From an uncultured Candidatus Saccharibacteria bacterium (lineage in GTDB: Bacteria; Patescibacteriota; Minisyncoccia; Phycocordibacterales; UBA9973), in the NCBI GenBank assembly GCA_964456475.1, contig CAYVZI010000002.1, positions 52,659 through 104,826 of the forward strand: a stretch of DNA of 52,168 bases, given 5' to 3'. A program made the position numbers and the translations under genes. Positions within the stretch are counted from its first letter, which is position 1; each line of letters starts with the position of its first letter. Under the pieces are notes generated by a model. It saw only the letters and a list, made by a program, of their open reading frames with translations. It was not told the DNA's origin and made no database searches. Of the stretch, positions 304 to 37,857 are shown one piece after another.

Positions 304-1996
304 TACGCAACCGTATCGTCGTTCGTCCTGCGAAGTAGGACTTTTCGAGCGTAGCGATCAAATTGATTGAATCCCCTATCTGTATCGGCTTAGAAAAACT
401 ATTTTCATCAGCAAAGAATGCAATAGCAATTTTTTCTGGGGCGCTCGCGTCAGCGAGCGCCAACTCTAAATGATTTTTTTCTTTACCGAAGAGTTTGATC
501 CGCTTCACAGTCACATTCTGAAAAAGGAATGTCGGTTTTGGATTACCCAAACCAAACGGTGCAAGTTGGGTAATCATTGCAGACGTTTTTTCGTTGATAT
601 CGGAAAGCGTGAGCGTAGCATCGATTGAACTTGCGGAGATTACACCTTTTTCCATGGTTTCAAAAATAACACAAAGTTTTTCTTCAAGAAAATGTACCGA
701 TTCTTGTGTCACCGAAAATCCACCGGCGAGTTCGTGTCCACCGAAATCAATGAAGTGCTCTTTGGCTGTCTCCATGAGTTGCACGACATTCACCGCTCCA
801 TTCGAACGACACGAGCCCTTTACTACAGTGTCGCCATTCGTTCCCTCCCTTCCCCACACAAACACCGGTCTATCGAATTCGTCCATTACTTTGCCTGCCA
901 CAAGCCCAAGAATGCCCACGCGCCACTTCGGATTGCCAATCACAATGATTGGACCGAGAGTGCGTTCCGCGAGCGCATGCTTCACCTCTTTCATGATTCC
1001 CGCAACGAGTGTTTTGCGTTCATCATTGATCTTGGTGAGATGTTCCGCAAGCGCGCCAGCTTTTGCCGGGTCACGCTCTGAGAGCATTTCAAATGCTCGC
1101 ATTGGAGAATCCATACGGCTCGCCGCATTAATGCGAGGGGTCACCATAAACGTGATATCGTCTTCCACGATTGTCGTCTGATCGATGTTGAGTTTGCGCA
1201 GGAGCTGTTGCAATCCAGGACGCGGAGATTTACGGAAAACCTGCATGCCAAATGAGGCGATCGTGCGATTCTCGCCCACAAGTGGCACCATATCCGAAAG
1301 GGTCGCAAGGCCGGCCATATCAAGAAGCCACTTTTCCCAGCCTTCGTTTATTTTGTAGTACTCGCCATACTTTTTTACAAACGCTTGGACGAGCTTAAAC
1401 ATTACCCCCGAGCCGCAAAGCATGGGTTCTGGGTAAGAACCGAGTTTCGGATTCACAATTGCAAATGCCGAAGGCAGTGTTTCGTGTGGGAGGTGATGAT
1501 CAGTCACAATAACGTCAATACCATTTGCTTGTGCCTCAGCAATGTCTTCATGGTCGGTCGTACCAAGGTCGATAGTAATGAGTAGCTGCACTTCTTGTTC
1601 AATGAATGTCTCAATCGCGTCCTTGTTGAGCCCATACCCTTCTTCGTGACGGTCAGGAATATACACAGAGAAATGTTCATACCCGATCTTCGTCAGCAAA
1701 TCATGCAAGATGACTGCGCCGGGAATTCCGTCACAGTCGTAGTCGGCATAGACTACAATCTTTTGTTTCGCTTCGATAGCTTCAAATATTCGCACAACCG
1801 CCTTTTCCATATCATGCATAAGAAGCGGATCATGCATGTGTTCTTCGTATTTAGGTTTCAAAAATCGTTCAGCATCTTCTTGTGTTCGAATTCCCCGGTT
1901 CAAAAGAAGTCGAGCAAGAAGCGGGTTAAACCCAACAAGCGTATGCTCCCCCTCCATGACTTCAGGAATATGATCAAAATTCTTCTGCATAGGCAC
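287..1996 (-). CDS. recJ: ssDNA-specific exonuclease RecJ (DHH/DHHA1)
   Basis: YADYDCDG motif I, ITIDLG, TDHH, LSDMVPL, PRINAASR, GSCRS, GGHELAGG, LAPFGLGNPKP. Confidence 0.96.
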   Translation of the reverse strand: MPMQKNFDHIPEVMEGEHTLVGFNPLLARLLLNRGIRTQEDAERFLKPKYEEHMHDPLLMHDMEKAVVRIFEAIEAKQKIVVYADYDCDGIPGAVILHDLLTKIGYEHFSVYIPDRHEEGYGLNKDAIETFIEQEVQLLITIDLGTTDHEDIAEAQANGIDVIVTDHHLPHETLPSAFAIVNPKLGSYPEPMLCGSGVMFKLVQAFVKKYGEYYKINEGWEKWLLDMAGLATLSDMVPLVGENRTIASFGMQVFRKSPRPGLQQLLRKLNIDQTTIVEDDITFMVTPRINAASRMDSPMRAFEMLSERDPAKAGALAEHLTKINDERKTLVAGIMKEVKHALAERTLGPIIVIGNPKWRVGILGLVAGKVMDEFDRPVFVWGREGTNGDTVVKGSCRSNGAVNVVQLMETAKEHFIDFGGHELAGGFSVTQESVHFLEEKLCVIFETMEKGVISASSIDATLTLSDINEKTSAMITQLAPFGLGNPKPTFLFQNVTVKRIKLFGKEKNHLELALADASAPEKIAIAFFADENSFSKPIQIGDSINLIATLEKSYFAGRTTIRLRIVDIQ

Positions 1997-3788: not shown

Positions 3789-4640
3789 ATGAAAATAATA
3801 CTTTTAGCATTACTTTGTGTTTTGCCAACACAACTCTTTGCACAGATAGAGTTAAAAGATTCTGTGCATCATACCGAAATGACTGTGTATGCCGGCACTC
3901 TTGCCGGACCAAGGGTTCTCCTTGAAAATGCCAAAATTTCTGGCATATACACACTCCGTGTCGGTGGGACTATTACCTACGCACCAGCAAAATGGATATC
4001 CATTTTCGCTTTGGGAGCCGGTGAAGTGGCTCAAATCGACACGAGTACGATCATTACTCCATTCACGCTTTTCGCAGTAAAAGTCCGGCCTATCAAGGCG
4101 CTTACGATTACTGTGGGAAAGATAGCTTCTCCTATGACCGAACTACGTCCAATCCCAACTACAGGGGCTGGCCAATTCGAACCTTGGACAAAAGCCCGCA
4201 TTCCGGGCTCTGCACTTGGTGGAAAGGCTTCGTTTTCTTTAAACAAAGACTTCTCCCTTACCGGAGGAATATTTGCACGAGGATTTGAATCTTCTTCTGA
4301 GCTATCTGTGGGAAATTCGCACATCAGAGTTGCTGGATACTACATGAACCAAACAAAAATGTATGGTGGAGCACTGCAAGTGACTTATCCGTATGTTTCA
4401 AACACGATCATGTATAACCACAATCAAAATTGTGGAATGCTCACTGTGATAACCATACCGAAAACTGAAGGTATCGCCGTCTATTCTGATGTTGGATTCA
4501 ACCCCAACAATTGGACTATGATTCGCGGTGAATGGGGATTGTTTAAAGCATTCTCTATCAACAAAATCTTCGGCCTCATCGGTGCTGGATATAACAATGA
4601 GCTACAAAGCATCAACGGATACATATTCATACATATCTAA
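3789..4640 (+). CDS. Hypothetical secreted, beta-strand-rich protein
   Basis: Signal peptide MKIILLALLCVLPTQLFAQ; alternating hydrophobic strands; ends GYIFIHI. Confidence 0.7.
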   Translation: MKIILLALLCVLPTQLFAQIELKDSVHHTEMTVYAGTLAGPRVLLENAKISGIYTLRVGGTITYAPAKWISIFALGAGEVAQIDTSTIITPFTLFAVKVRPIKALTITVGKIASPMTELRPIPTTGAGQFEPWTKARIPGSALGGKASFSLNKDFSLTGGIFARGFESSSELSVGNSHIRVAGYYMNQTKMYGGALQVTYPYVSNTIMYNHNQNCGMLTVITIPKTEGIAVYSDVGFNPNNWTMIRGEWGLFKAFSINKIFGLIGAGYNNELQSINGYIFIHI

Positions 4641-4810: not shown

Positions 4811-5923
4811 CTTTAGTGCTTTAATTCCGGGAAGAGTCCCTTTTGCCATAAATTCTAGTGCGGCGCCGCCGGCAGTAGAGACGAAGGTAAATTTGTCGGC
4901 CATTTTCTTTTTTTCAACAAGCACTGCCGTATCTCCCCCGCCAATAATTGTCTCTCCTTTTGCCGAAGCGAGGAGTTTGATCACCTCTTCTGTTCCTTTT
5001 GTATATCCGCCTTCGTACCAGCCCATCGGTCCATTCCAAACGATGAGCTTAGCTTTCTTGATGAGGCCAGCAAGCGCATCAATACTTGGAAGTCCGATAT
5101 CAAAGATGGATTCAGTATGACGAATATCGTGTATAGAAACTGTCTGCTTTTTTCCGTCTCTTTCAACCACAACGCTCTCTGGAACTATCAGCTTTTTGTT
5201 TTTCAAAAGAGTTTTGAGAAGTGGTGCTTCTGAATCTACTTTTGATTTTCCAACGTCAATTCCTTCTGCACGTAGAAAATCATCCGCCAAACCTCCGCCA
5301 ATAAATACATGGTCCGCTTCCTTGAGATATTTTTTTAAAAGTGGAATCTTGGTTTCTGCTTTTACTCCGCCTTGGATAAAAAGAAATGGGTGCTTCGGTT
5401 TGAGAAGCTTTGAAAGTTCTTTCACTTCGCGCTCAAACTGGAATCCAGCATATGAAGGAAGGAGCTTCGGCAAAAGCACGGTTGAAGCATCCTCTCGGTG
5501 AGAGACAGGAAATGCCTCATTCACATAGATATCACCGAGCTTGGCGAGTGCAAGAGCAAAAAGCTTGTCTCCATCCTTCTCACCAGCCACACTACGCAAA
5601 TTCTCAAGCATAAGAACATCACCGTTTTTCATATTTCCGACAGCCTTTTGAGCTTCAATACCGGTAATGTCAGTAACGTAACAGAGTGGAAAATACTTTT
5701 TTAGTAACAAAAAAACGGGTTTCAATGTTTCTTCAGGTTCACGACCGATATGACTCACAAGAATTACTTTTGCTCCTTTTTTACGAAGGAAATCAATCGT
5801 TTTCTGAGCAACAGTAATACGTGTAGTATCGAGAACTTTTGTTCCATTCAGTGGAACATTGAAGTCTGTACGTACAATCACTCGTTTTCCTTTGATATTT
5901 TTTAGTTCTTTAACAGATTTCAT
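4808..5923 (-). CDS. pgk: Phosphoglycerate kinase
   Basis: RVIVRTDFNVP, SHIGR, LENLR, YVNEAF..SHR, GGVKAETK, WNGPMG, GGGDT, STAGGAALEF. Confidence 0.97.
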   Translation of the reverse strand: MKSVKELKNIKGKRVIVRTDFNVPLNGTKVLDTTRITVAQKTIDFLRKKGAKVILVSHIGREPEETLKPVFLLLKKYFPLCYVTDITGIEAQKAVGNMKNGDVLMLENLRSVAGEKDGDKLFALALAKLGDIYVNEAFPVSHREDASTVLLPKLLPSYAGFQFEREVKELSKLLKPKHPFLFIQGGVKAETKIPLLKKYLKEADHVFIGGGLADDFLRAEGIDVGKSKVDSEAPLLKTLLKNKKLIVPESVVVERDGKKQTVSIHDIRHTESIFDIGLPSIDALAGLIKKAKLIVWNGPMGWYEGGYTKGTEEVIKLLASAKGETIIGGGDTAVLVEKKKMADKFTFVSTAGGAALEFMAKGTLPGIKALK

Positions 5924-6802: not shown

Positions 6803-8611
6803 TTATTGTGTTTCCTTCCACGAATCCACAGTATACGAACCTGAAGGGCCAAGTACAAAGTTCACGTTCGCAAGACCGGTATCATAGGTCAAAGTTGCGC
6901 TATTAGACATGCTAATCCTGTAAGCTACAGCCTCCTTGGCACCAGCTGTGTTAGAAAAAGTGATTGTTCCATTTGGTGCTACAAGAATAACCGTACCTGC
7001 ACTGTTTGCAACATTAATAGCCGAAGATGACGATGAGGTGGTGAGCATCATCATATAACTACCCGTAGTACCTGACCCAGCGAATGCAGCCGAGTTTGAT
7101 GTTGAAACAGTACCATCAGAGATAATCATTCCACTTCCCGTTCCATATCCGGACGCGAGCTTCACGATAGCATTATTTGAGAGAACAATATTCCCCGTCA
7201 CCCAAAGCGTTCCCGACAACGTAAGCACGCCATTGTTACTGACATACAAATCACCAACAATCTTTTTTGGGCCAAGCGTAGCCGCAGAAGTACCAGAGAG
7301 CGAATAGCTACCAGTGAGAGTTCCACCAGCAAGTGCATCCGCCTTCCAGTCAGTTATTTGTGATGTTGAAATCGGAAAATTGAGCGGTGTTGGATCAGCA
7401 AGTGATGTATTACAACTCTTATTGTTTCCGCTTCCTGTTTGACAATAGAGGCTTCCTGCAATCGTTGACCCAGTGACTGTATGAGCCCAGGCATTACCTA
7501 CACTACCGGTTCCAATTGTCATTCCGCTAATAGTAGAGTTTACCCCACCGAGCGAGAGTTTGAAAAATCCATCGAGTCCAGATGGGCTCGTATTGTTCCA
7601 AGTGGTCGTTCCATATGTTCCCGTCTTTCCAAGACCGCTGGCATACCCAGCACTGTTTGCGCCCCAAATATAATAGTTTGAGGCATTTGCACTTCCATCG
7701 AGCACGACCCAGTATGTCGTACCGGCAGTAAGCGTCACGTTCGGAGAAAGTGCAACCGTTGCCCAACCATATGATGTAGTCACGGTCGATGCAGAAATTG
7801 TCCCCGTAGTAAGAGAACTTGATGAGGGCTTTCCAGAGGAATCACTGGTGATTCGCACAGTGAGATTACTCGGACTGCCCACTTTTTTTATATACACTTC
7901 CACCTGTGTGGCAGTATCAGAAATACTTGTTTGAAAACTCTGAGCTGCATCTTGTGTAGCAGAAGCATTCGCAAACGTAATCGAATGAGAGGGTGTACCC
8001 GTATCGTTGACTTGGTCAACGACTTGAGTGCTACGATCAGCGGCAAAAGCCGCTCCGGTGATTGAAGCACTCCCCGTTCCTGAAATATCACCATTCGCAT
8101 ATACATTACCGATAATCTGAGAAGAATTTGCCATAGAGAGTCCTCCATTCCCTACCTGCATACCATAGTTAAAAGAAACACCGGCTCCAGTGGTAACGAC
8201 GACATCGACAGCTCGATTGAAATCAGAGACATCACCAATACTGGTAATTTGTTTTTGTCCTCCGCTGAGATTGGTGATTGTCGTGACCGTCGAAGAACTT
8301 CCGAGCACAAGAGTAACACTCGAAGGTAGCGTCAAATTATTTTTCAAACGGTAGAATGCATCTTCGGCTCCAGACTCAGACAAAAAATAACTCTGTCGTG
8401 AAGTAAGAGCATCATTCGCAATTTTATACTCGCGAGCTGCCGGACCAGTGAGACCAAGAACAACAAGTACTGATGCCAAAATAAAGAAAATAAGCGAAAT
8501 CATCATCGCCGCTCCGCGCTCGTGGTTTGGTATTAGGTGTTTGGTGTTTGGTGATAGCTTATCCAAAACCATTTTTATTTTTTCTATGAAATTATTTTTT
8601 GAGTTTTGCAT
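6803..8611 (-). CDS. PilX/GspK-like minor pilin with large Ser/Thr/Gly-rich passenger (candidate adhesin)
   Basis: ERG|AAMMISLIF pilin-like helix lacking E5, FLSESGAEDA motif, last gene of the minor-pilin cluster, beta-rich C-terminus. Confidence 0.75.
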   Translation of the reverse strand: MQNSKNNFIEKIKMVLDKLSPNTKHLIPNHERGAAMMISLIFFILASVLVVLGLTGPAAREYKIANDALTSRQSYFLSESGAEDAFYRLKNNLTLPSSVTLVLGSSSTVTTITNLSGGQKQITSIGDVSDFNRAVDVVVTTGAGVSFNYGMQVGNGGLSMANSSQIIGNVYANGDISGTGSASITGAAFAADRSTQVVDQVNDTGTPSHSITFANASATQDAAQSFQTSISDTATQVEVYIKKVGSPSNLTVRITSDSSGKPSSSSLTTGTISASTVTTSYGWATVALSPNVTLTAGTTYWVVLDGSANASNYYIWGANSAGYASGLGKTGTYGTTTWNNTSPSGLDGFFKLSLGGVNSTISGMTIGTGSVGNAWAHTVTGSTIAGSLYCQTGSGNNKSCNTSLADPTPLNFPISTSQITDWKADALAGGTLTGSYSLSGTSAATLGPKKIVGDLYVSNNGVLTLSGTLWVTGNIVLSNNAIVKLASGYGTGSGMIISDGTVSTSNSAAFAGSGTTGSYMMMLTTSSSSSAINVANSAGTVILVAPNGTITFSNTAGAKEAVAYRISMSNSATLTYDTGLANVNFVLGPSGSYTVDSWKETQ

Positions 8612-31237: not shown

Positions 31238-31356
31238 TCTCTTCAGACATTACAAAAGACGCCCAATAGCATTAGGGGCGGCTTTTGTGATATTAAAAAA
31301 GCACACTCTTTATTTTAAGGTGTGCTTTTGTGAACAATTTTATGTTTCTCTTAATC

Positions 31357-31794
31357 TTATTTTCTATACAATGCTATCCTTGCTCCTTTACGAAATCCAT
31401 CTGGTGCTGAGATTCTTGTTATTTCAGAAGCTTTTCCGTCATTGTGGAATTTATAAAAACACATGCAACGAACGTCCATTCCGCGAAACCCCCTGCCATG
31501 ATCGCAATACAACAGACTTCCAATAAAATGGATGTACTCATCTGTATTTTTTGCATTAGCTGGAATTTCTTCTGGATGATTCATCAGGAAATCATAAACG
31601 GTTGCATTCAAAGGAATTTTTTCCTTTTGCATCTCTAAATATTTCACAAGATCATCCCAACTTGTATCCTCTTTGCATACATATAATTCAAAGTTTTGGG
31701 AATTCCACTCGATTACCCCATGTTTATCATGACTAAATAACATATCATTTGTGCGAAGATTCGGTACTTCATTGGTATTGATTATGTGTTTCAT
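31357..31794 (-). CDS. Hypothetical protein, array 2 ORF3
   Basis: 145 aa; PLNATVYDFLMNHPEEIP..IHFIGS resembles a recurrent uncharacterised CPR family (from memory, unverified). Confidence 0.7.
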   Translation of the reverse strand: MKHIINTNEVPNLRTNDMLFSHDKHGVIEWNSQNFELYVCKEDTSWDDLVKYLEMQKEKIPLNATVYDFLMNHPEEIPANAKNTDEYIHFIGSLLYCDHGRGFRGMDVRCMCFYKFHNDGKASEITRISAPDGFRKGARIALYRK

Positions 31795-31800
31795 ATATTT

Positions 31801-31855
31801 GTTTTAAAAGGTTACCCAAATTTCCCAGAGAGAATCTCGGGTAACCTTTTAAAAC
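31801..31855. repeat. Long palindrome directly upstream of ORF 31794 start
   Basis: gttttaaaaggttaccc/gggtaaccttttaaaac, 17-bp perfect arms. Confidence 0.8.
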
Positions 31856-31870
31856 TTTGGAAAAGAGCTT

Positions 31871-31920
31871 CTGTTTCGTCCTTTTGGACTCATCAGGCAA
31901 AGCAGTTCACTTTGCGACAG
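31871..31920 (-). ncRNA. Type III hammerhead ribozyme HHR-1
   Basis: Minus strand: CUGUC^GCAAAG-UGAACUG-CUUUGC-CUGAUGA-GUCC-AAAA-GGAC-GAAA-CAG; full core, three stems, GUC cleavage triplet. Confidence 0.93.
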
Positions 31921-32015
31921 TGCGGTAGAATTATCTCCACCGCTTTTATGTTAGGCACGTTTACGAAAGGCTGTGTCCATTTACCTTTTGCTCTGTCCCC
32001 AAGAGCCGGGCATCT

Positions 32016-32414
32016 TTAGGCTTCGACGGCCGTTTTCTGGAATTCAACTTTCTGCAAAAAATCTATCAGGTACTGATCGACAAAACCGGAAGCCCCGTTT
32101 TTGTTTATTGATCCGTCCCAGATGTCGTCTTTTGATTCTGACGTTGAATACAAAAATGTCTTTGCCGTGTCGTTGGCTAATTTCACCCGCAAGGTCAGCT
32201 GAGGGCCCTGCTCTTCCTGGGAAGTCCATGTTTTTCCGAGGACGACCAGGCAATTCTTCTGTCGTTGCGCTTTCAGCACAATTTCCTCGGAATTGCTGGA
32301 GATGAAAATTCTCTCGGCCACTTCCTGAGAAAAATGTGCCGCAACGGCTTGTTTGATCGTGCGGACATCGCTCGCCAAAGTCTGGCCGATAAAAATACAA
32401 GATATGTTCCTCAT
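32016..32414 (-). CDS. Hypothetical protein, possibly a degenerate receiver (CheY-like) fold, array 2 ORF2
   Basis: Start MRNISCIFIG at 32414 (the longer call runs through HHR-2); alternating beta/alpha pattern, GPQL..VK...TFLYS..DG.INK. Confidence 0.6.
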   Translation of the reverse strand: MRNISCIFIGQTLASDVRTIKQAVAAHFSQEVAERIFISSNSEEIVLKAQRQKNCLVVLGKTWTSQEEQGPQLTLRVKLANDTAKTFLYSTSESKDDIWDGSINKNGASGFVDQYLIDFLQKVEFQKTAVEA

Positions 32415-32438
32415 GCTATTAAATTTTTTGAAAGAATT

Positions 32439-32490
32439 ACTGTTTCGCTCTTTTGAGCTCATCAGGAGAAGCAATACACTTCTCGACAGT
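32439..32490 (-). ncRNA. Type III hammerhead ribozyme HHR-2
   Basis: Minus strand: ACUGUC^GAGAAG-UGUAUUG-CUUCUC-CUGAUGA-GCUC-AAAA-GAGC-GAAA-CAGU; compensatory stems relative to HHR-1. Confidence 0.94.
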
Positions 32491-32552
32491 GCCATGATTT
32501 TTTACATGGCCTTGATTTATAAAGCATTTTACGATTAGGCTGCTTCGTTTTC

Positions 32553-32849
32553 CTAGGTTTTGGGTACAACACAAAACATGTGGGCTATCGATCTAGGCTT
32601 GAAACCCGACATCTTCTGGCCGTCAGGCAAAAGCAGAGAAAGCTCCTTTACCTCTACCCATGTAGAACCTATAAATTCAGCGTCTTCAGGGATGTCAGTA
32701 TTTTCTTTTACATACCCTTTTATATGCTTAGCAACAGAACCACCCTCCTGGATGAAAATAACCTCTGATACTTCTCTCACTAGAGTATTTTCTCTCGGAT
32801 CGTTTTCTGTACGTTCGTATACTATGTAGTACCAGTTACCGACACTCAT
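32553..32849 (-). CDS. Hypothetical protein, array 2 ORF1
   Basis: Probable start MSVGNWYYIVYE at 32849. Confidence 0.6.
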   Translation of the reverse strand: MSVGNWYYIVYERTENDPRENTLVREVSEVIFIQEGGSVAKHIKGYVKENTDIPEDAEFIGSTWVEVKELSLLLPDGQKMSGFKPRSIAHMFCVVPKT

Positions 32850-32940
32850 GCTTTCGTTTTTTATGAATGAACAATTTATTTCGTATACATTATGCAATGG
32901 TTTTCCATTTCTGTCATATATGTCGTCATTTATTGAAATA

Positions 32941-32993
32941 TTGACAAAAATTCCATATTTTATATACTATTATTGTTGTCGAAATTTTCGACA
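32941..32993 (+). promoter_or_regulatory. Promoter and palindromic operator of TrmB copy 2
   Basis: TTGACA-N16-TATACT (32941-32968); tgtcgaaa-t-tttcgaca (32977-32993). Confidence 0.65.
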
Positions 32994-32999
32994 TAAAAT

Positions 33000-33743
33000 A
33001 TGAAAAACGAGAAACTATACGGAATATTGAAAGAAATAGGGCTAACCGACGATGAATCGGCTGTGTATTTGGCGAGCCTTTCGCTTGGAATTACGACTGT
33101 GCTCAAAATAGCCAAGGCTACAAACATCAAAAGAACGACAATCTATGGGATTATTGATTCGCTTAAAGAAAAAGGTCTTATGCGCATTGAGCTCAAAGGA
33201 TTAAAACAGCTCTATGCAGTCGAAAGCCCTGAGCGCTTGAATCTCATGCTCGAACGCAAAAAAGACGAGTTTGCAAAAAATCTGCCAGAATTCATGGCTC
33301 TCTATAAACTCGATGGGGGCGAAAGCGTCATCAAGTACTACACTGGCCTTCAGACAATGAAAGATATCTATCGTGACACACTCAAAGAAATAAAACCACA
33401 TCAAGACTATCTTGTAATCGCAAACGAAGAAAAATGGAGAAGCTTGGATCCGGGATTTGCTCTCTCGTATACAGAAGAACGAGCAAAACTACCGATAAAG
33501 ACTCGAATGCTCTTCCAAGACTCCCCTGTTGCACGTGAAGAAAAGAAATTTGAACGCAACTTCAACCACGAAATCAAAATCCTTCCGGAGAGCACCCCGC
33601 TCAACGTCGACACTCTCCTTCTCCCGAACAAACTCATCACATTTGAAATGACCCCGCCGTACATGACGGTAGTGATAGAAAACAAAAGCATCATTGAACT
33701 CCACCGCGAAATGTTCGAGATAATTTGGAAATCAATCAAGTAA
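33000..33743 (+). CDS. TrmB-family HTH transcriptional regulator (copy 2)
   Basis: IGLTDDESAVYLASL, IAKATNIKRTTIYGIIDSLKEKGL, SVIKYYTG. Confidence 0.88.
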   Translation: MKNEKLYGILKEIGLTDDESAVYLASLSLGITTVLKIAKATNIKRTTIYGIIDSLKEKGLMRIELKGLKQLYAVESPERLNLMLERKKDEFAKNLPEFMALYKLDGGESVIKYYTGLQTMKDIYRDTLKEIKPHQDYLVIANEEKWRSLDPGFALSYTEERAKLPIKTRMLFQDSPVAREEKKFERNFNHEIKILPESTPLNVDTLLLPNKLITFEMTPPYMTVVIENKSIIELHREMFEIIWKSIK

Positions 33744-33901
33744 TTCTCTATTTTTGGCACAAAAAAATACCCTTCCGGGTTGTGAGGCGACACCCCTTGT
33801 TCACTCCACGAACCAATGCTCATGAGTTGAATAAAGGGCGAGTGAGTCTGTTTGCGGTTTTGATACCACAAACTTCGCAGTCGCCGATTTTTATTACTTC
33901 T

Positions 33902-36788: not shown

Positions 36789-36859
36789 TGCGGGGTAGGA
36801 GAGTCGAACTCCTCACCACAGTTTGGAAAACTGTTGTTTTACCGATAAACTAACCCCGC
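36789..36859 (-). tRNA. tRNA-Gly(TCC)
   Basis: gcgggg/ccccgc acceptor, acagt-tt-TCC-aa-actgt anticodon arm, ggag-ttcgact-ctcc T-arm. Confidence 0.95.
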
Positions 36860-37081
36860 TTATTAATATAAAGATGAGAACTCTGTCGGAATACAGGGTG
36901 AATGATGGGATGGGACCCATCCTGCAAGACCTTCTTGAGATATTTTATAATAATCTATGAAATATCCAAAAGGTGTACAGATCCTGTAAGGATTCGCCTG
37001 CCCTCTTTCGCAAGCAACCACGGAGACACCCCATGTCTCCGGAGAATCCCTTTTTTAAAAAATAACAAAACAAAACCTCCG

Positions 37082-37152
37082 TCGGGGTGCCGGGAATCGA
37101 ACCCGGCCCTCTTGTTCCCAAAACAAGTATACTACCGATATACTACACCCCG
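37082..37152 (-). tRNA. tRNA-Pro(TGG)
   Basis: cggggtg/caccccg acceptor, cttgt-tt-TGG-ga-acaag, ccggg-ttcgatt-cccgg. Confidence 0.95.
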
Positions 37153-37196
37153 ACGGAACCCTCGTCTACCTGTTATTTTTTAAAAAAGAAATTCTC

Positions 37197-37233
37197 CCCA
37201 AAACAAGTATACTACCGATATACTACGCCCCGA
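37197..37233 (-). pseudogene. Duplicated 5' half of tRNA-Pro
   Basis: 37 bp with 1 mismatch to 37117-37153; breaks at the anticodon loop. Confidence 0.85.
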
Positions 37234-37319
37234 AGACCTCGATAATATAGCAGTATTAAGGCATAAAGACAAATCCAAAATCTTCTGCTATAGTGCGACC
37301 AAACAAAAACCCTTTTAAG

Positions 37320-37820
37320 ATGCCACAGACATACACGATCGAGCATGAACTCGATCAAAAAAAGATACAGTCCCTTCGTGATTCAAATAGACTTATTGAA
37401 TACGAGAACAAGATTGTCCGCTACCGCGGAATTGAGTTCTCAAACGATGATGACATTTCTGACCAGAATAAATTACTCATCTTGCCTGGTCTCATGAGAA
37501 GAGATGAGCGTAGGTCAGAAAATAGGGTGTACATCAACATGCGCAACCCAAAAGCAGCACCGCCAAAATACATTGAAAATGTATTTTACTACAGAGATTC
37601 AAAGTCATTTAGCGAGTCCTCACTCAAACCTAAGGATAATTTTGTTCTTGTACTGGCACGTAGCATACTTTGGTTTGAAGTAGAAAAGTTCAACAGCTCG
37701 CTCGTGAGAAAGCACGAAATCGATAACAGAAGGAGGGATGTACTACTTTTCTTCCCAACAGATAGACTTTTACGGCTAAAATTTGTAGAAAACGTGATTG
37801 AAGAATTTCCATTCAGTTAA
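37320..37820 (+). CDS. Hypothetical protein
   Basis: Open frame of about 166 aa followed by a terminator hairpin at 37828-37855. Confidence 0.6.
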   Translation: MPQTYTIEHELDQKKIQSLRDSNRLIEYENKIVRYRGIEFSNDDDISDQNKLLILPGLMRRDERRSENRVYINMRNPKAAPPKYIENVFYYRDSKSFSESSLKPKDNFVLVLARSILWFEVEKFNSSLVRKHEIDNRRRDVLLFFPTDRLLRLKFVENVIEEFPFS

Positions 37821-37857
37821 AAACTGGAAAAACACCAACAAATTGGTGTTTTTTTAT

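What the first reader, a model, noticed from the sequence alone, without database searches (positions are those of the whole stretch)
31916..32484. Ribozyme-to-ribozyme monomer could be a 569-nt circular mRNA
Seen: the fragment between the two cleavage sites is 569 nt and contains exactly one ORF (132 aa, possibly a degenerate receiver fold) with its A-rich start context. Established: RNAs with a 5'-OH and a 2',3'-cyclic phosphate are RtcB-type ligase substrates, and tandem hammerheads generate circles in retrozymes and viroid-like RNAs. Inference: this locus may yield a covalently closed coding RNA, or be a domesticated or integrated remnant of a hammerhead-bearing RNA element. No ligase gene is in this window.
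Basis: inference. Interest (0 to 1): 0.7.

Follow-up and report, generated by a model that had tools for sequence, protein, structure and literature searches.

The report
Gene flanked by two hammerhead ribozymes
Two self-cutting RNA motifs (hammerhead ribozymes) do bracket a small gene in this uncultivated bacterium, but comparison with hundreds of similar sites suggests they cut a three-gene message into single-gene pieces rather than make a circular RNA, which could not be tested.

Summary
Two complete type III hammerheads lie on the minus strand (32492..32437 and 31923..31868). Their cleavage sites are exactly 569 nt apart and enclose one supported gene of 132 aa, whose predicted fold resembles a CheY-like receiver.

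The circular-mRNA interpretation could not be tested, because no RNA run holds this locus. Comparative evidence points elsewhere:
- The hammerheads belong to a large subfamily, each copy preceded by a hairpin. It is found mainly in Patescibacteria/CPR assemblies and IMG/VR viral contigs: 316 copies in 228 loci.
- Copies lie between co-oriented small genes, usually 20-30 nt before the next start codon, and often in arrays of 2-4.
- Distant homologs of the 132-aa gene have one upstream hammerhead (two contigs) or none (one). None has a second one.
- The downstream gene keeps its hammerhead only when another gene precedes it.
- The first gene after the promoter has no upstream hammerhead.

Best reading: a tricistronic accessory operon (A-HH-B-HH-C), divergent from a TrmB-like regulator gene, whose transcript is self-cleaved into monocistronic mRNAs with structured ends. 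Clustered hammerheads flanking single genes were described in 2011, when circles were sought and not found. This is a new member of a known kind, and a circular by-product remains possible.

The parts
33000..33743 (+). TrmB-like winged-helix regulator gene (247 aa), divergent from the ribozyme operon
   Evidence: Pfam PF01978 TrmB, E 7.8e-12. Orthologs of 70-97% identity sit beside related operons in L229, L176 and L232. TrmB-like genes lie next to this hammerhead subfamily in 45 of 119 genome loci.
32889..32929 (-). Putative promoter (ATGACA-17-CATAAT, 32917..32889) overlapped by a conserved operator-like 23-mer, ATGACGACATATATGACAGAAAT (32929..32907)
   Evidence: Promoter scan gives 10 of 12 matches. 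The 16-nt core of the 23-mer (GACGACATATATGACA) occurs once in the window. It recurs in L232 and twice in L176. Function is inferred.
32553..32849 (-). Gene A, 98-aa orphan and first cistron, with no hammerhead upstream
   Evidence: ORF list. The same 98-aa gene is called on the Logan contig. No homolog other than itself and no family hit.
32491..32511 (-). Pre-ribozyme hairpin (6-7 bp) abutting the 5' strand of stem III of the upstream hammerhead
   Evidence: Folding. This is a family-wide feature: 72% of 297 copies have a hairpin of -8 kcal/mol or better ending 5-7 nt before the cleavage site, against 13% of shuffles.
32437..32492 (-). Upstream type III hammerhead; predicted cleavage between 32485 and 32484
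   Evidence: RF00008 at 41.9 bits; model R1 at 65.9 bits; full consensus core.
31916..32484 (-). The 569-nt ribozyme-to-ribozyme RNA: hammerhead body, 22-nt A/U leader, gene B, 93-nt 3' UTR ending in hairpin-ACUGUC>p
   Evidence: Coordinates follow from the two cleavage sites. Fold z-score -2.65, not rod-like. Ends pair through a chimeric stem III in the linear form.
32016..32414 (-). Gene B, 132 aa, alpha/beta protein with a CheY-like receiver fold but no acidic phospho-acceptor pocket
   Evidence: Three distant homologs by exhaustive HMMER, E 1.4e-6 to 6.3e-4. Alignment. AlphaFold2 pLDDT 72, pTM 0.71. Foldseek hits to receiver domains, TM 0.55-0.65. No Pfam hit.
31922..31943 (-). Pre-ribozyme hairpin (8 bp) abutting the downstream hammerhead
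   Evidence: Folding; family-wide feature.
31868..31923 (-). Downstream type III hammerhead; predicted cleavage between 31916 and 31915
   Evidence: RF00008 at 38.7 bits; model R1 at 62.4 bits. An orthologous copy precedes the gene C ortholog in L229/L231.
31800..31856 (-). 20-bp leader hairpin between the downstream hammerhead and the gene C start codon
   Evidence: dG -31.9 kcal/mol, z -8.6. Conserved with compensatory changes in L229. It occurs there before three different genes, twice with a hammerhead and once without.
31357..31794 (-). Gene C, 145 aa, last cistron, function unknown
   Evidence: Homologs of 96% (L232) and 83% (L229) identity, always beside RNase Y. No family hit. The structure model was unusable, pLDDT 40.
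31295..31329 (-). Terminator-like hairpin (AGCACAC...GUGUGCU) followed by UUUUUU after gene C
   Evidence: Read from the sequence and visible in the alignment block.
31289..33741 (.). Strain-variable 2.45-kb island: the regulator plus the A-HH-B-HH-C operon
   Evidence: Contigs in runs X1 and X3 join 31264 to 33752 across 26 other letters, so they lack the whole block. The finer boundaries are my reading.

Best explanation
The two hammerheads are intercistronic self-cleaving 'punctuation' of a small accessory operon. They are not the termini of a dedicated circular RNA.

Proposed mechanism:
1. One promoter, overlapped by a conserved operator-like sequence and facing a divergent TrmB-like regulator gene, drives a tricistronic minus-strand transcript: gene A - hairpin - HH - gene B - hairpin - HH - leader hairpin - gene C - terminator.
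2. Each hammerhead folds as it is transcribed and cuts after GUC (32485|32484 and 31916|31915).
3. This releases three monocistronic mRNAs. Each upstream piece ends in a stable hairpin plus ACUGUC with a 2',3'-cyclic phosphate. Each downstream piece starts with a 5'-OH and the compact ribozyme body, followed by a short A/U-rich leader and the start codon.
4. The likely benefit is that every cistron gets the same defined ends, whatever gene lies next to it. That uncouples stability and translation between neighbours. It would suit a locus whose gene content is shuffled between strains.

Shown: the motifs, their conservation and covariation, their positions relative to genes, and the variable gene content. 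Inferred: co-transcription, cleavage in vivo, and the benefit.
For: 1. Real, conserved ribozymes.
- Both copies have a full consensus core and differ by compensatory stem changes.
- Among hits to a pattern that fixed only the core, stem II ends and the 3' strand of stem III, 223 of 224 have complementary free stem II positions (about 31 expected). 201 of 211 have the CUGUH strand plus a 6/6-bp stem I, against 3 of 211 shuffles.
- On 56 gapless copies, 98.3% of cells pair against 69.6% in shuffles, and 13 of 15 pairs change on both sides.

2. Intercistronic position across the family (316 copies in 228 loci).
- The ribozyme's 3' end lies most often 20-30 nt before a co-oriented ATG ORF. 64% lie within 100 nt, against 16% for random positions.
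- The preceding ORF's stop lies a median 43 nt upstream.
- 60 of 62 loci with several copies have them all on one strand. 50 of 89 neighbouring pairs enclose exactly one ORF. Spacings run from 270 to 4091 nt, so 569 is typical.

3. The number of hammerheads tracks the number of gene junctions, not a particular gene.
- Window: A-HH-B-HH-C.
- L229: X-HH-C.
- L232 (regulator and gene C proteins 96-97% identical): gene C directly follows the promoter, with no hammerhead. The window carries an extra 1050-bp block (32855..31806) exactly between the 5' UTR and the gene C ATG.
- Gene B homologs have one upstream hammerhead followed by a terminator (L224), one upstream hammerhead (L226), or none (L227).

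4. In 29 TrmB-divergent modules a small ORF separates the regulator from the nearest hammerhead. About half of such loci show only one hammerhead, so its conserved role cannot need a pair.

5. The hairpin before the ribozyme is conserved across the family. This fits protection of the new 3' end, or support for the short 4-5 bp stem III.

6. Only one promoter/operator copy lies upstream of gene A, and a terminator-like hairpin follows gene C.

7. Precedent: clustered hammerheads flanking single genes were shown to cleave polycistronic transcripts in vitro, and were proposed to yield single-gene mRNAs (PMC3088659; review PMC6765202).
Against: - No RNA data exist for this locus or its relatives. 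Co-transcription, cleavage in vivo and the fate of the fragments are all inferred.
- Both ribozymes score below Rfam's gathering threshold.
- In L176 a second operator copy follows the first hammerhead. Some family members may therefore sit at the 3' end of a transcription unit rather than inside one.
- The selective benefit (insulation, differential stability) is an analogy to synthetic ribozyme insulators, not a result.
- Processing and circularisation are not mutually exclusive. The shared stem III would hold the ends of the 569-nt piece together.
Confidence: 0.6

Rival explanations
1. One reading: the 569-nt piece released by the two cuts is ligated into a covalently closed, translatable circular mRNA for the 132-aa protein. 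Ligation would be by the hammerhead's own reverse reaction or by an RtcB-type ligase.
For: - Hammerhead products carry the 5'-OH and 2',3'-cyclic phosphate ends that RtcB joins (established chemistry; PMC8782182).
- Both ribozymes have the same stem III (CACUGUC / GAAACAG). The monomer's 3' end can therefore pair with its 5' ribozyme body. The MFE fold and partition function of the linear monomer show this, with pair probability about 0.6.
- 50 of 89 neighbouring hammerhead pairs in related loci also enclose a single ORF.
Against: - Double flanking is not conserved for this gene family or for gene C.
- First and last cistrons can never be circularised, and about half of related modules have one hammerhead.
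- A ligated circle would contain an intact, locally folded hammerhead and should re-cleave. No rod-like alternative fold that would hide it is seen.
- No RtcB or RtcA homolog was found in the window or in 1.88 Mb of hammerhead-bearing loci.
- The ORF has a normal stop, so endless rolling translation is not possible.
- Perreault et al. looked for circular or spliced products of clustered bacterial hammerheads and detected none (PMC3088659).
Confidence: 0.1
2. The hammerhead modules (conserved motif, hairpin, ribozyme, leader) mark the boundaries of exchangeable gene cassettes. Their sequence identity promotes recombination that inserts, deletes or swaps small genes downstream of TrmB-regulated promoters. 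Self-cleavage then makes each newly placed gene expressible in any context. This complements the best explanation rather than excluding it.
For: - Gene content between the conserved regulator and gene C differs among close relatives. The window has A and B, L232 has nothing, and L229 has an unrelated 120-aa gene. The window-versus-L232 breakpoint lies exactly at the 5' UTR/ATG junction and at the end of the leader hairpin.
- In L229 a nearly identical hammerhead plus leader (about 130 nt) precedes two unrelated genes, and the similarity stops at the ATG.
- The motif AGCCUNNUCGUAAA recurs upstream of hammerheads in several genomes.
- Contigs in X3 diverge from the window just beyond the upstream hairpin.
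- The whole 2.45-kb island is present or absent among co-existing strains.
- Genes led by hammerheads are mostly small orphans, plus ArdC, DUF932 and methyltransferases that are typical of mobile elements.
Against: - No recombinase is adjacent. The nearest integrase gene is 12 kb away.
- No target-site duplications or precise cassette excision products were seen.
- Variation can arise by ordinary homologous recombination or by deletion.
- The sample of close relatives is small (3-4 genomes).
Confidence: 0.15
3. The motifs are decaying or inactive copies with no role, and the arrangement is a chance product of duplicating an intergenic repeat.
For: Both score below the Rfam gathering threshold. 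Stem III is only 4-5 bp. No activity data exist.
Against: Every catalytic core position is consensus, and the stems show compensatory change between the two copies. The subfamily shows strong covariation and positional conservation across hundreds of genomes. The low Rfam score applies to the whole subfamily: in 18 related loci, each with at least one copy, none reaches the threshold.
Confidence: 0.04

Closest known systems
Clustered hammerhead ribozymes flanking genes in bacterial and prophage operons (Perreault et al. 2011, PMC3088659; e.g. the Agrobacterium tumefaciens ardA triple arrangement, Clostridium scindens, Azorhizobium caulinodans)
   Same: Several co-oriented hammerheads lie in intergenic regions and bracket single genes or short blocks whose identity varies. 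The proposed role is processing of a polycistronic RNA into single-gene mRNAs. Anti-restriction-type genes are among the cargo (ArdC here, ardA there).
   Different: This subfamily is type III with a 4-bp stem II closed by an AAAA loop, a conserved UGUGUR-like loop I and an abutting upstream hairpin. It is concentrated in Patescibacteria/CPR assemblies. In 45 of 119 genome loci it lies beside a TrmB-like regulator gene. No phage genes flank this copy.
Retrozymes and Avsunviroidae/viroid-like circular RNAs with type III hammerheads
   Same: Type III hammerheads at both ends of a unit of 300-1000 nt, with ligatable 5'-OH and 2',3'-cP ends, and identical stem III sequences that can juxtapose the ends.
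   Different: This unit is protein-coding and DNA-encoded in a bacterial chromosome in conserved synteny. It lacks long direct repeats and a rod-like fold, and has a ribozyme in one polarity only. The paired arrangement is not conserved. Circularity is untested.
Synthetic ribozyme insulators such as RiboJ (hammerhead plus hairpin placed in a 5' UTR; from my own knowledge, Lou et al. 2012)
   Same: A self-cleaving hammerhead a few tens of nt before the start codon removes the upstream context and leaves a standard structured 5' end. Before gene C, a hairpin follows the ribozyme, as in RiboJ.
   Different: These are natural elements, and the insulating effect is only inferred here. RiboJ derives from a plant satellite RNA.
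Integron gene-cassette arrays (analogy only)
   Same: Arrays of small, mostly orphan, co-oriented genes are separated by a repeated structured element and driven from one end. Gene content varies between strains.
   Different: There is no integrase and there are no attC sites. The repeated element is an RNA-level ribozyme, and no site-specific recombination is shown.

Membership tests
Hammerhead ribozyme, type III (Rfam RF00008) | Conserved catalytic core: C3 U4 G5 A6 N7 G8 A9, G12 A13 A14, A15.1-U16.1 and a cleavable H17 | tested here: met
   Both copies read CUGAUGA ... GAAA with GUC at the cleavage site.
Hammerhead ribozyme, type III (Rfam RF00008) | Three helices around the core, with I and II closed by loops and III open | tested here: met
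   cmscan alignments and folds show stem I of 6-7 bp, stem II of 4 bp with an AAAA loop, and stem III of 4-5 bp.
Hammerhead ribozyme, type III (Rfam RF00008) | Helices supported by covariation among relatives | tested here: met
   Searches are free of selection on the positions tested. One search gives 98.3% paired against 69.6% in shuffles, with 13 of 15 pairs changed on both sides.
Hammerhead ribozyme, type III (Rfam RF00008) | Score at or above Rfam's gathering threshold (48.5 bits) | tested here: not met
   41.9 and 38.7 bits. The whole subfamily falls below the threshold: in 18 related loci none reaches it.
Hammerhead ribozyme, type III (Rfam RF00008) | Site-specific self-cleavage | not testable with these tools
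   Needs in vitro transcription or end-mapping of RNA.
Clustered hammerheads flanking genes in bacterial/prophage operons (Perreault 2011) | Two or more co-oriented hammerheads in intergenic regions, flanking single genes or short blocks of variable identity | tested here: met
   Window layout A-HH-B-HH-C. The same layout occurs in 62 related loci.
Clustered hammerheads flanking genes in bacterial/prophage operons (Perreault 2011) | Prophage or integrase neighbourhood | tested here: inconclusive
   The block is a strain-variable island. A tyrosine integrase gene lies 12 kb away. No PHROG or PADLOC hit was found for genes A, B or C.
Hammerhead circular RNAs (retrozymes, viroid-like RNAs) | Covalently closed circular RNA detected (back-joined reads, RNase R resistance) | not testable with these tools
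   No RNA runs hold the window, L229 or L117. The junction search in JGI contigs found nothing, but the control also found nothing.
Hammerhead circular RNAs (retrozymes, viroid-like RNAs) | Non-coding, highly self-complementary rod-like or branched monomer | tested here: not met
   The monomer encodes a protein with homologs. The fold z-score is -2.65, 61% of bases pair in the circular MFE fold, and the fold is not rod-like.
Hammerhead circular RNAs (retrozymes, viroid-like RNAs) | Retrozyme: long direct repeats (hundreds of bp) carrying the ribozymes | tested here: not met
   Similarity between the two ribozyme regions is limited to about 110 nt at 82% column identity. PBS, PPT and target-site duplications were not examined.
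Hammerhead circular RNAs (retrozymes, viroid-like RNAs) | Viroid-like replicon: RNA-only, not part of a cellular chromosome; ribozymes in both polarities for symmetric rolling circle | tested here: not met
   The locus is present in DNA assemblies in synteny with RNase Y, trigger factor and NusA. No hammerhead lies on the plus strand.
RtcB-dependent RNA circularisation | An RtcB-type ligase encoded by the organism | tested here: inconclusive
   No RtcB or RtcA homolog was found in the 52-kb window or in 1.88 Mb of hammerhead-bearing loci (tblastn, E<=1; Pfam). The rest of the genome is not available.
CheY-like receiver domain (gene B product) | (beta-alpha)5 flavodoxin-like fold | tested here: met
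   The AlphaFold2 model (pLDDT 72, pTM 0.71) has alternating strands and helices. The top Foldseek PDB hits are almost all receiver domains, TM 0.55-0.65, E about 1e-3. This rests on a moderate-confidence model.
CheY-like receiver domain (gene B product) | Conserved acidic pocket and phospho-acceptor Asp at the end of strand 3; Pfam Response_reg match | tested here: not met
   The four-member alignment has LGK/LGK/IGT/LEK at that position and GQ after strand 1. There is no Pfam hit.
TrmB family transcriptional regulator (33000..33743) | N-terminal TrmB winged-helix DNA-binding domain | tested here: met
   PF01978, 45.3 bits against a cutoff of 25.6.

The most novel reading that the evidence does not exclude
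Single genes bracketed by two hammerheads with identical stem III, here and in dozens of Patescibacteria and phage loci, are ligated after self-cleavage into covalently closed circular mRNAs that are translated. That would be a natural, ribozyme-made circular coding RNA in bacteria.
Probability: 0.1. Interest if true: 0.85.

Novelty: new member of a known kind. Interest (0 to 1): 0.4.

Why it matters
What bacterial hammerheads are for has been an open question since they were found in large numbers in 2011.

This locus is a compact instance that could be tested: a regulator, one promoter/operator, three small genes and two ribozymes in 2.45 kb that some strains lack.

The comparison made here adds three points that I did not find in the searchable literature:
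- A hairpin-plus-type-III hammerhead subfamily is abundant in Patescibacteria/CPR assemblies, and Rfam's gathering threshold misses it.
- It lies at gene junctions, with a very regular spacing to the next start codon.
- In more than a third of the genome loci it accompanies a TrmB-like regulator gene.

If the punctuation/insulator reading holds, these would be natural counterparts of the ribozyme insulators used in synthetic biology, serving loci whose gene content is shuffled. If the circular reading holds, it would be a new class of bacterial RNA.

Tried and rejected
- RNA evidence: three searches for RNA runs (window 31850-32500, L229:4300-8500, L117:4400-5900) returned nothing. Junction reads and read ends could therefore not be examined.
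- Back-join junction (CTACCGCACTGTCGAGAAGTGTATTGC) in JGI metagenome contigs: 0 hits. The control pattern for the genomic upstream hammerhead also gave 0, so the result is uninformative.
- DNA contigs of eight runs show no back-joined form. This was expected and says nothing about RNA.
- Folding the monomer as a circle: stem III probability drops to 0.01. I discount this. Nearest-neighbour models do not capture the hammerhead core, and they mispair CUGAUGA with ACAG in all copies.
- More gene B relatives: the alignment was too divergent for the metagenome scan, and the viral scan found none.
- Genes A and C: no Pfam, NCBIfam, PHROG or PADLOC assignment. Gene A has no homolog. The gene C structure model was unusable, pLDDT 40.
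- Weak NCBIfam hits of gene B to AmiC and AgrA (E 0.003 and 0.05, far below the cutoffs) were dismissed.
- Other ribozyme classes as second cutters in single-hammerhead modules: none at Rfam gathering scores in 125 kb.
- Missing Shine-Dalgarno sequence as a special feature of genes led by hammerheads: rejected, because the whole genome lacks them.
- Rfam matches to microRNA, snoRNA and Yfr10 families in the region are chance hits on hairpins.
Full report
**What is there**

On the minus strand of 31290..33000 the window carries three small co-oriented ORFs:
- gene A, 32849..32553, 98 aa
- gene B, 32414..32016, 132 aa
- gene C, 31794..31357, 145 aa

A type III hammerhead lies in each of the two gaps between them. 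Rfam's default scan reports only four tRNAs in the window. With permissive thresholds, RF00008 matches 32492..32437 at 41.9 bits and 31923..31868 at 38.7 bits. Both are full length and both are below the gathering score of 48.5.

Every catalytic core position is consensus. The two copies differ by compensatory substitutions in stems I and II. Cleavage after GUC falls between 32485|32484 and between 31916|31915. The core pattern occurs 3 times in the window against 0.33 expected. A covariance model built here finds exactly these two copies, at 65.9 and 62.4 bits.

**Anatomy around the ribozymes**

- Each hammerhead is directly preceded by a hairpin (32511..32491 and 31943..31922) that ends a few nucleotides before the cleavage site.
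- The upstream ribozyme ends 22 nt before the gene B ATG, in an A/U-rich leader.
- The downstream ribozyme is followed by a perfect 20-bp hairpin (31856..31800; dG -31.9, z -8.6) and then the gene C ATG.
- A sigma-70-like promoter (ATGACA-17-CATAAT, 32917..32889) precedes gene A. A 23-nt sequence, ATGACGACATATATGACAGAAAT, overlaps it. Its 16-nt core occurs once in the window and recurs in relatives.
- A TrmB-like regulator gene (33000..33743) is transcribed divergently.
- A hairpin followed by a U-tract follows gene C.

The simplest reading is one regulated tricistronic transcript, A-HH-B-HH-C. This is an inference.

**The enclosed gene is real**

A word-indexed search of 5.8 billion proteins found only gene B itself. 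An exhaustive HMMER search found three distant homologs of 124-129 aa, with E from 1.4e-6 to 6.3e-4.

An AlphaFold2 model has pLDDT 72 and pTM 0.71. It is alpha/beta, and its best PDB matches are CheY-like receiver domains, with TM 0.55-0.65. The acidic pocket and the phospho-acceptor Asp are absent, and there is no Pfam hit.

Genes A and C have no assignable function.

**The ribozymes belong to a large family**

The pattern CTGATGAGNNCAAAAGNNCGAAACAG fixes only the core, the ends of stem II and the 3' strand of stem III. It hit 103 IMG/VR viral contigs.

Of the 80 genome rows shown:
- 58 are named Patescibacteria/CPR lineages (Saccharibacteria, Paceibacterota, Parcubacteria and others)
- 15 are unnamed 'bacterium'
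- 7 are other taxa

Structural support from positions the pattern left free:
- 223 of 224 unique hits have complementary free stem II positions, against about 31 expected.
- 201 of 211 have the upstream CUGUH strand and a 6/6-bp stem I, against 3 of 211 shuffles.
- On 56 gapless copies, 98.3% of cells pair against 69.6% in shuffles, and 13 of 15 pairs show changes on both sides.
- 72% of 297 copies have a stable hairpin ending 5-7 nt before the cleavage site, against 13% of shuffles.

None of these copies reaches Rfam's gathering score. I found no paper in the searchable library that links hammerheads with CPR, Patescibacteria or Saccharibacteria.

**Where family members lie**

My scanner called 316 type III copies in 228 loci, and 62 loci have 2-4 copies.
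- The ribozyme's 3' end lies most often 20-30 nt before a co-oriented ATG ORF. 64% lie within 100 nt, against 16% of random positions.
- The preceding ORF ends a median 43 nt upstream.
- The genes that follow are small, with a median of 106 aa.
- In 60 of the 62 multi-copy loci all copies are on one strand.
- 50 of 89 neighbouring pairs enclose exactly one ORF.
- Spacings run from 270 to 4091 nt, so 569 is ordinary.

Most genes led by a hammerhead have no Pfam hit. Those with hits include ArdC, DUF932, DUF2201, RNA polymerase alpha CTD-like domains and methyltransferases.

Perreault et al. (PMC3088659) described this kind of arrangement in 2011. They showed cleavage of polycistronic transcripts in vitro and proposed processing into single-gene mRNAs. 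They also report that they looked for spliced or circular products and detected none. A 2019 review still lists the function as open.

**Is the pair of ribozymes conserved?**

It is not.

Gene B homologs:
- L224 has one hammerhead about 30 nt before the ATG and an intrinsic terminator after the gene.
- L226 has one upstream hammerhead and none downstream.
- L227 has none.

Gene C orthologs:
- In L229/L231 (83% identity, the same place beside RNase Y) an unrelated 120-aa gene is followed by hairpin, hammerhead, leader hairpin and gene C.
- In L232 (96% identity) gene C follows the promoter directly, with no hammerhead.

DNA alignment shows that, relative to L232, the window has an extra 1050-bp block (32855..31806). 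The block runs from the gene A ATG to the end of the leader hairpin. It lies exactly between the shared 5' UTR and the gene C ATG.

The number of hammerheads therefore equals the number of gene junctions. The first cistron has no upstream hammerhead.

**A wider module**

The window's TrmB-like protein finds relatives in 45 of 119 hammerhead-bearing genome loci and in 0 of 103 viral loci.
- In 34 cases the regulator gene is divergent from the ribozyme strand.
- The first cleavage site is then a median 700 nt from the regulator's start; it is 516 nt in the window.
- One small ORF of varying family lies in between.
- With the covariance model, 23 of 44 such loci show one hammerhead and 21 show two to four. 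Some loci are cut off at their ends.

A role that needs two cuts cannot explain the single-copy modules.

**Variability**

- Contigs in runs X1 and X3 join 31264 to 33752. Co-existing strains therefore lack the whole 2.45-kb regulator-plus-operon block.
- In L229 a nearly identical hammerhead plus leader (about 130 nt) precedes two unrelated genes, and the similarity stops at the ATG. A third copy of the leader hairpin lacks a ribozyme.
- The motif AGCCUNNUCGUAAA recurs upstream of the pre-ribozyme hairpin in several genomes. One is L176, which has the same regulator and two hammerheads 565 nt apart.

These points suggest modular, cassette-like exchange at the ribozyme modules. No recombinase is adjacent, and the evidence is thin.

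**The circular-RNA idea**

Points that make it chemically plausible:
- Hammerhead products have the ends that RtcB joins.
- The shared stem III lets the 3' end of the 569-nt piece pair with its own 5' ribozyme body. The linear MFE fold and partition function show this, with probability about 0.6.

Points against it as the purpose of the arrangement:
- The comparative points above.
- A ligated circle would carry an intact hammerhead with no competing rod-like fold (z -2.65).
- The ORF has an ordinary stop codon.
- No RtcB or RtcA homolog is found in the window or in 1.88 Mb of related loci.
- The 2011 search for such products was negative.

Direct tests were impossible. No RNA runs are available, and the junction search lacked a positive control hit.

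The 'integrated RNA element' reading fails its defining features. The locus is chromosomal DNA in conserved synteny. The repeats are short, the unit is coding, and only one polarity carries a ribozyme.

**Verdict**

The most likely mechanism (confidence 0.6) is co-transcriptional self-cleavage of a TrmB-regulated tricistronic accessory transcript into three mRNAs. Their ends would be defined and structured: a hairpin with a 2',3'-cyclic phosphate at the 3' end, and a 5'-OH on the ribozyme body at the 5' end. This would make each cistron independent of its changing neighbours.

A circular form of the middle piece is a minority possibility (about 0.1) that only RNA data can settle.

The locus is a new member of a known kind. 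The family-level picture found on the way is the more interesting result: abundance in CPR assemblies, the upstream hairpin, the regular spacing, and the association with TrmB-like regulators.

Noticed in passing
window 31289..33741: Co-existing strain variants in runs X1 and X3 lack the whole 2.45-kb block (TrmB-like regulator plus A-HH-B-HH-C). Their contigs join 31264 to 33752 across 26 other letters, so the block is an accessory island between the RNase Y terminator and the next gene.
   Followed up: partly
window 31806..32855 compared with L232: L232 encodes a regulator and a gene C that are 96-97% identical to the window's. It lacks a 1050-bp block (gene A, hammerhead, gene B, hammerhead, leader hairpin). 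The breakpoints lie exactly at the 5' UTR/ATG junctions, so gene content behind the same promoter is cassette-like.
   Followed up: yes
L105-L223 (genome contigs); window 33000..33743: TrmB-like regulator genes accompany this hammerhead subfamily in 45 of 119 genome loci and in 0 of 103 viral loci. Usually the regulator is divergent, with one small ORF of varying family before the first ribozyme. This recurrent module in CPR assemblies appears undescribed in the searchable literature.
   Followed up: partly
window 31800..31856; L229 4800..4865, 5440..5495, 7930..7995: A 20-bp leader hairpin just before the start codon is conserved with compensatory changes. In L229 it lies in front of three unrelated genes, once without a hammerhead. 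Its role is unknown; it could control translation or bind a protein.
   Followed up: partly
window 32907..32929; L232 about 1120..1145; L176 5145..5170 and 4500..4522: An operator-like sequence, ATGACGACATATATGACAGAAAT, overlaps the -35 of the operon promoter and is conserved in relatives. L176 has a second copy downstream of its first hammerhead. It is probably the binding site of the TrmB-like regulator.
   Followed up: partly
window 32528..32541 and about 31960..31973; L155, L176, L195, L229: A short motif, AGCCUNNUCGUAAA, lies upstream of the pre-ribozyme hairpin in several independent genomes. The repeated intergenic unit is therefore larger than the ribozyme itself.
   Followed up: partly
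18 related loci (125 kb): At Rfam's gathering thresholds none of the hammerheads of this subfamily is reported, and only tRNAs are found. Standard annotation pipelines will therefore miss the whole group.
   Followed up: yes
whole window: Almost no gene in the window has a Shine-Dalgarno motif. Start codons lie in A/T-rich, unstructured contexts. This is consistent with a Patescibacteria-like organism that initiates translation without SD pairing.
   Followed up: partly
window 36789..39759 and 44420..45478: A cluster of four tRNA genes lies 4-7 kb from the island, and a tyrosine recombinase (phage-integrase family) gene lies 12 kb away. tRNA genes are also frequent in related hammerhead loci.
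   Followed up: no
L216 and L222 (first ORFs after the regulator): Some first cistrons in related modules begin MKILVIEDQ or MKVLVFDDN, like canonical receiver domains. Receiver-like single-domain proteins may be recurrent cargo of these operons, alongside the degenerate one in the window.
   Followed up: no
L142 (labelled Bacteroidales) and L114 (Polynucleobacter): A few contigs assigned to non-CPR taxa carry the same module. L142 has the TrmB-like gene and three hammerheads. This may reflect mis-binning or horizontal transfer.
   Followed up: no
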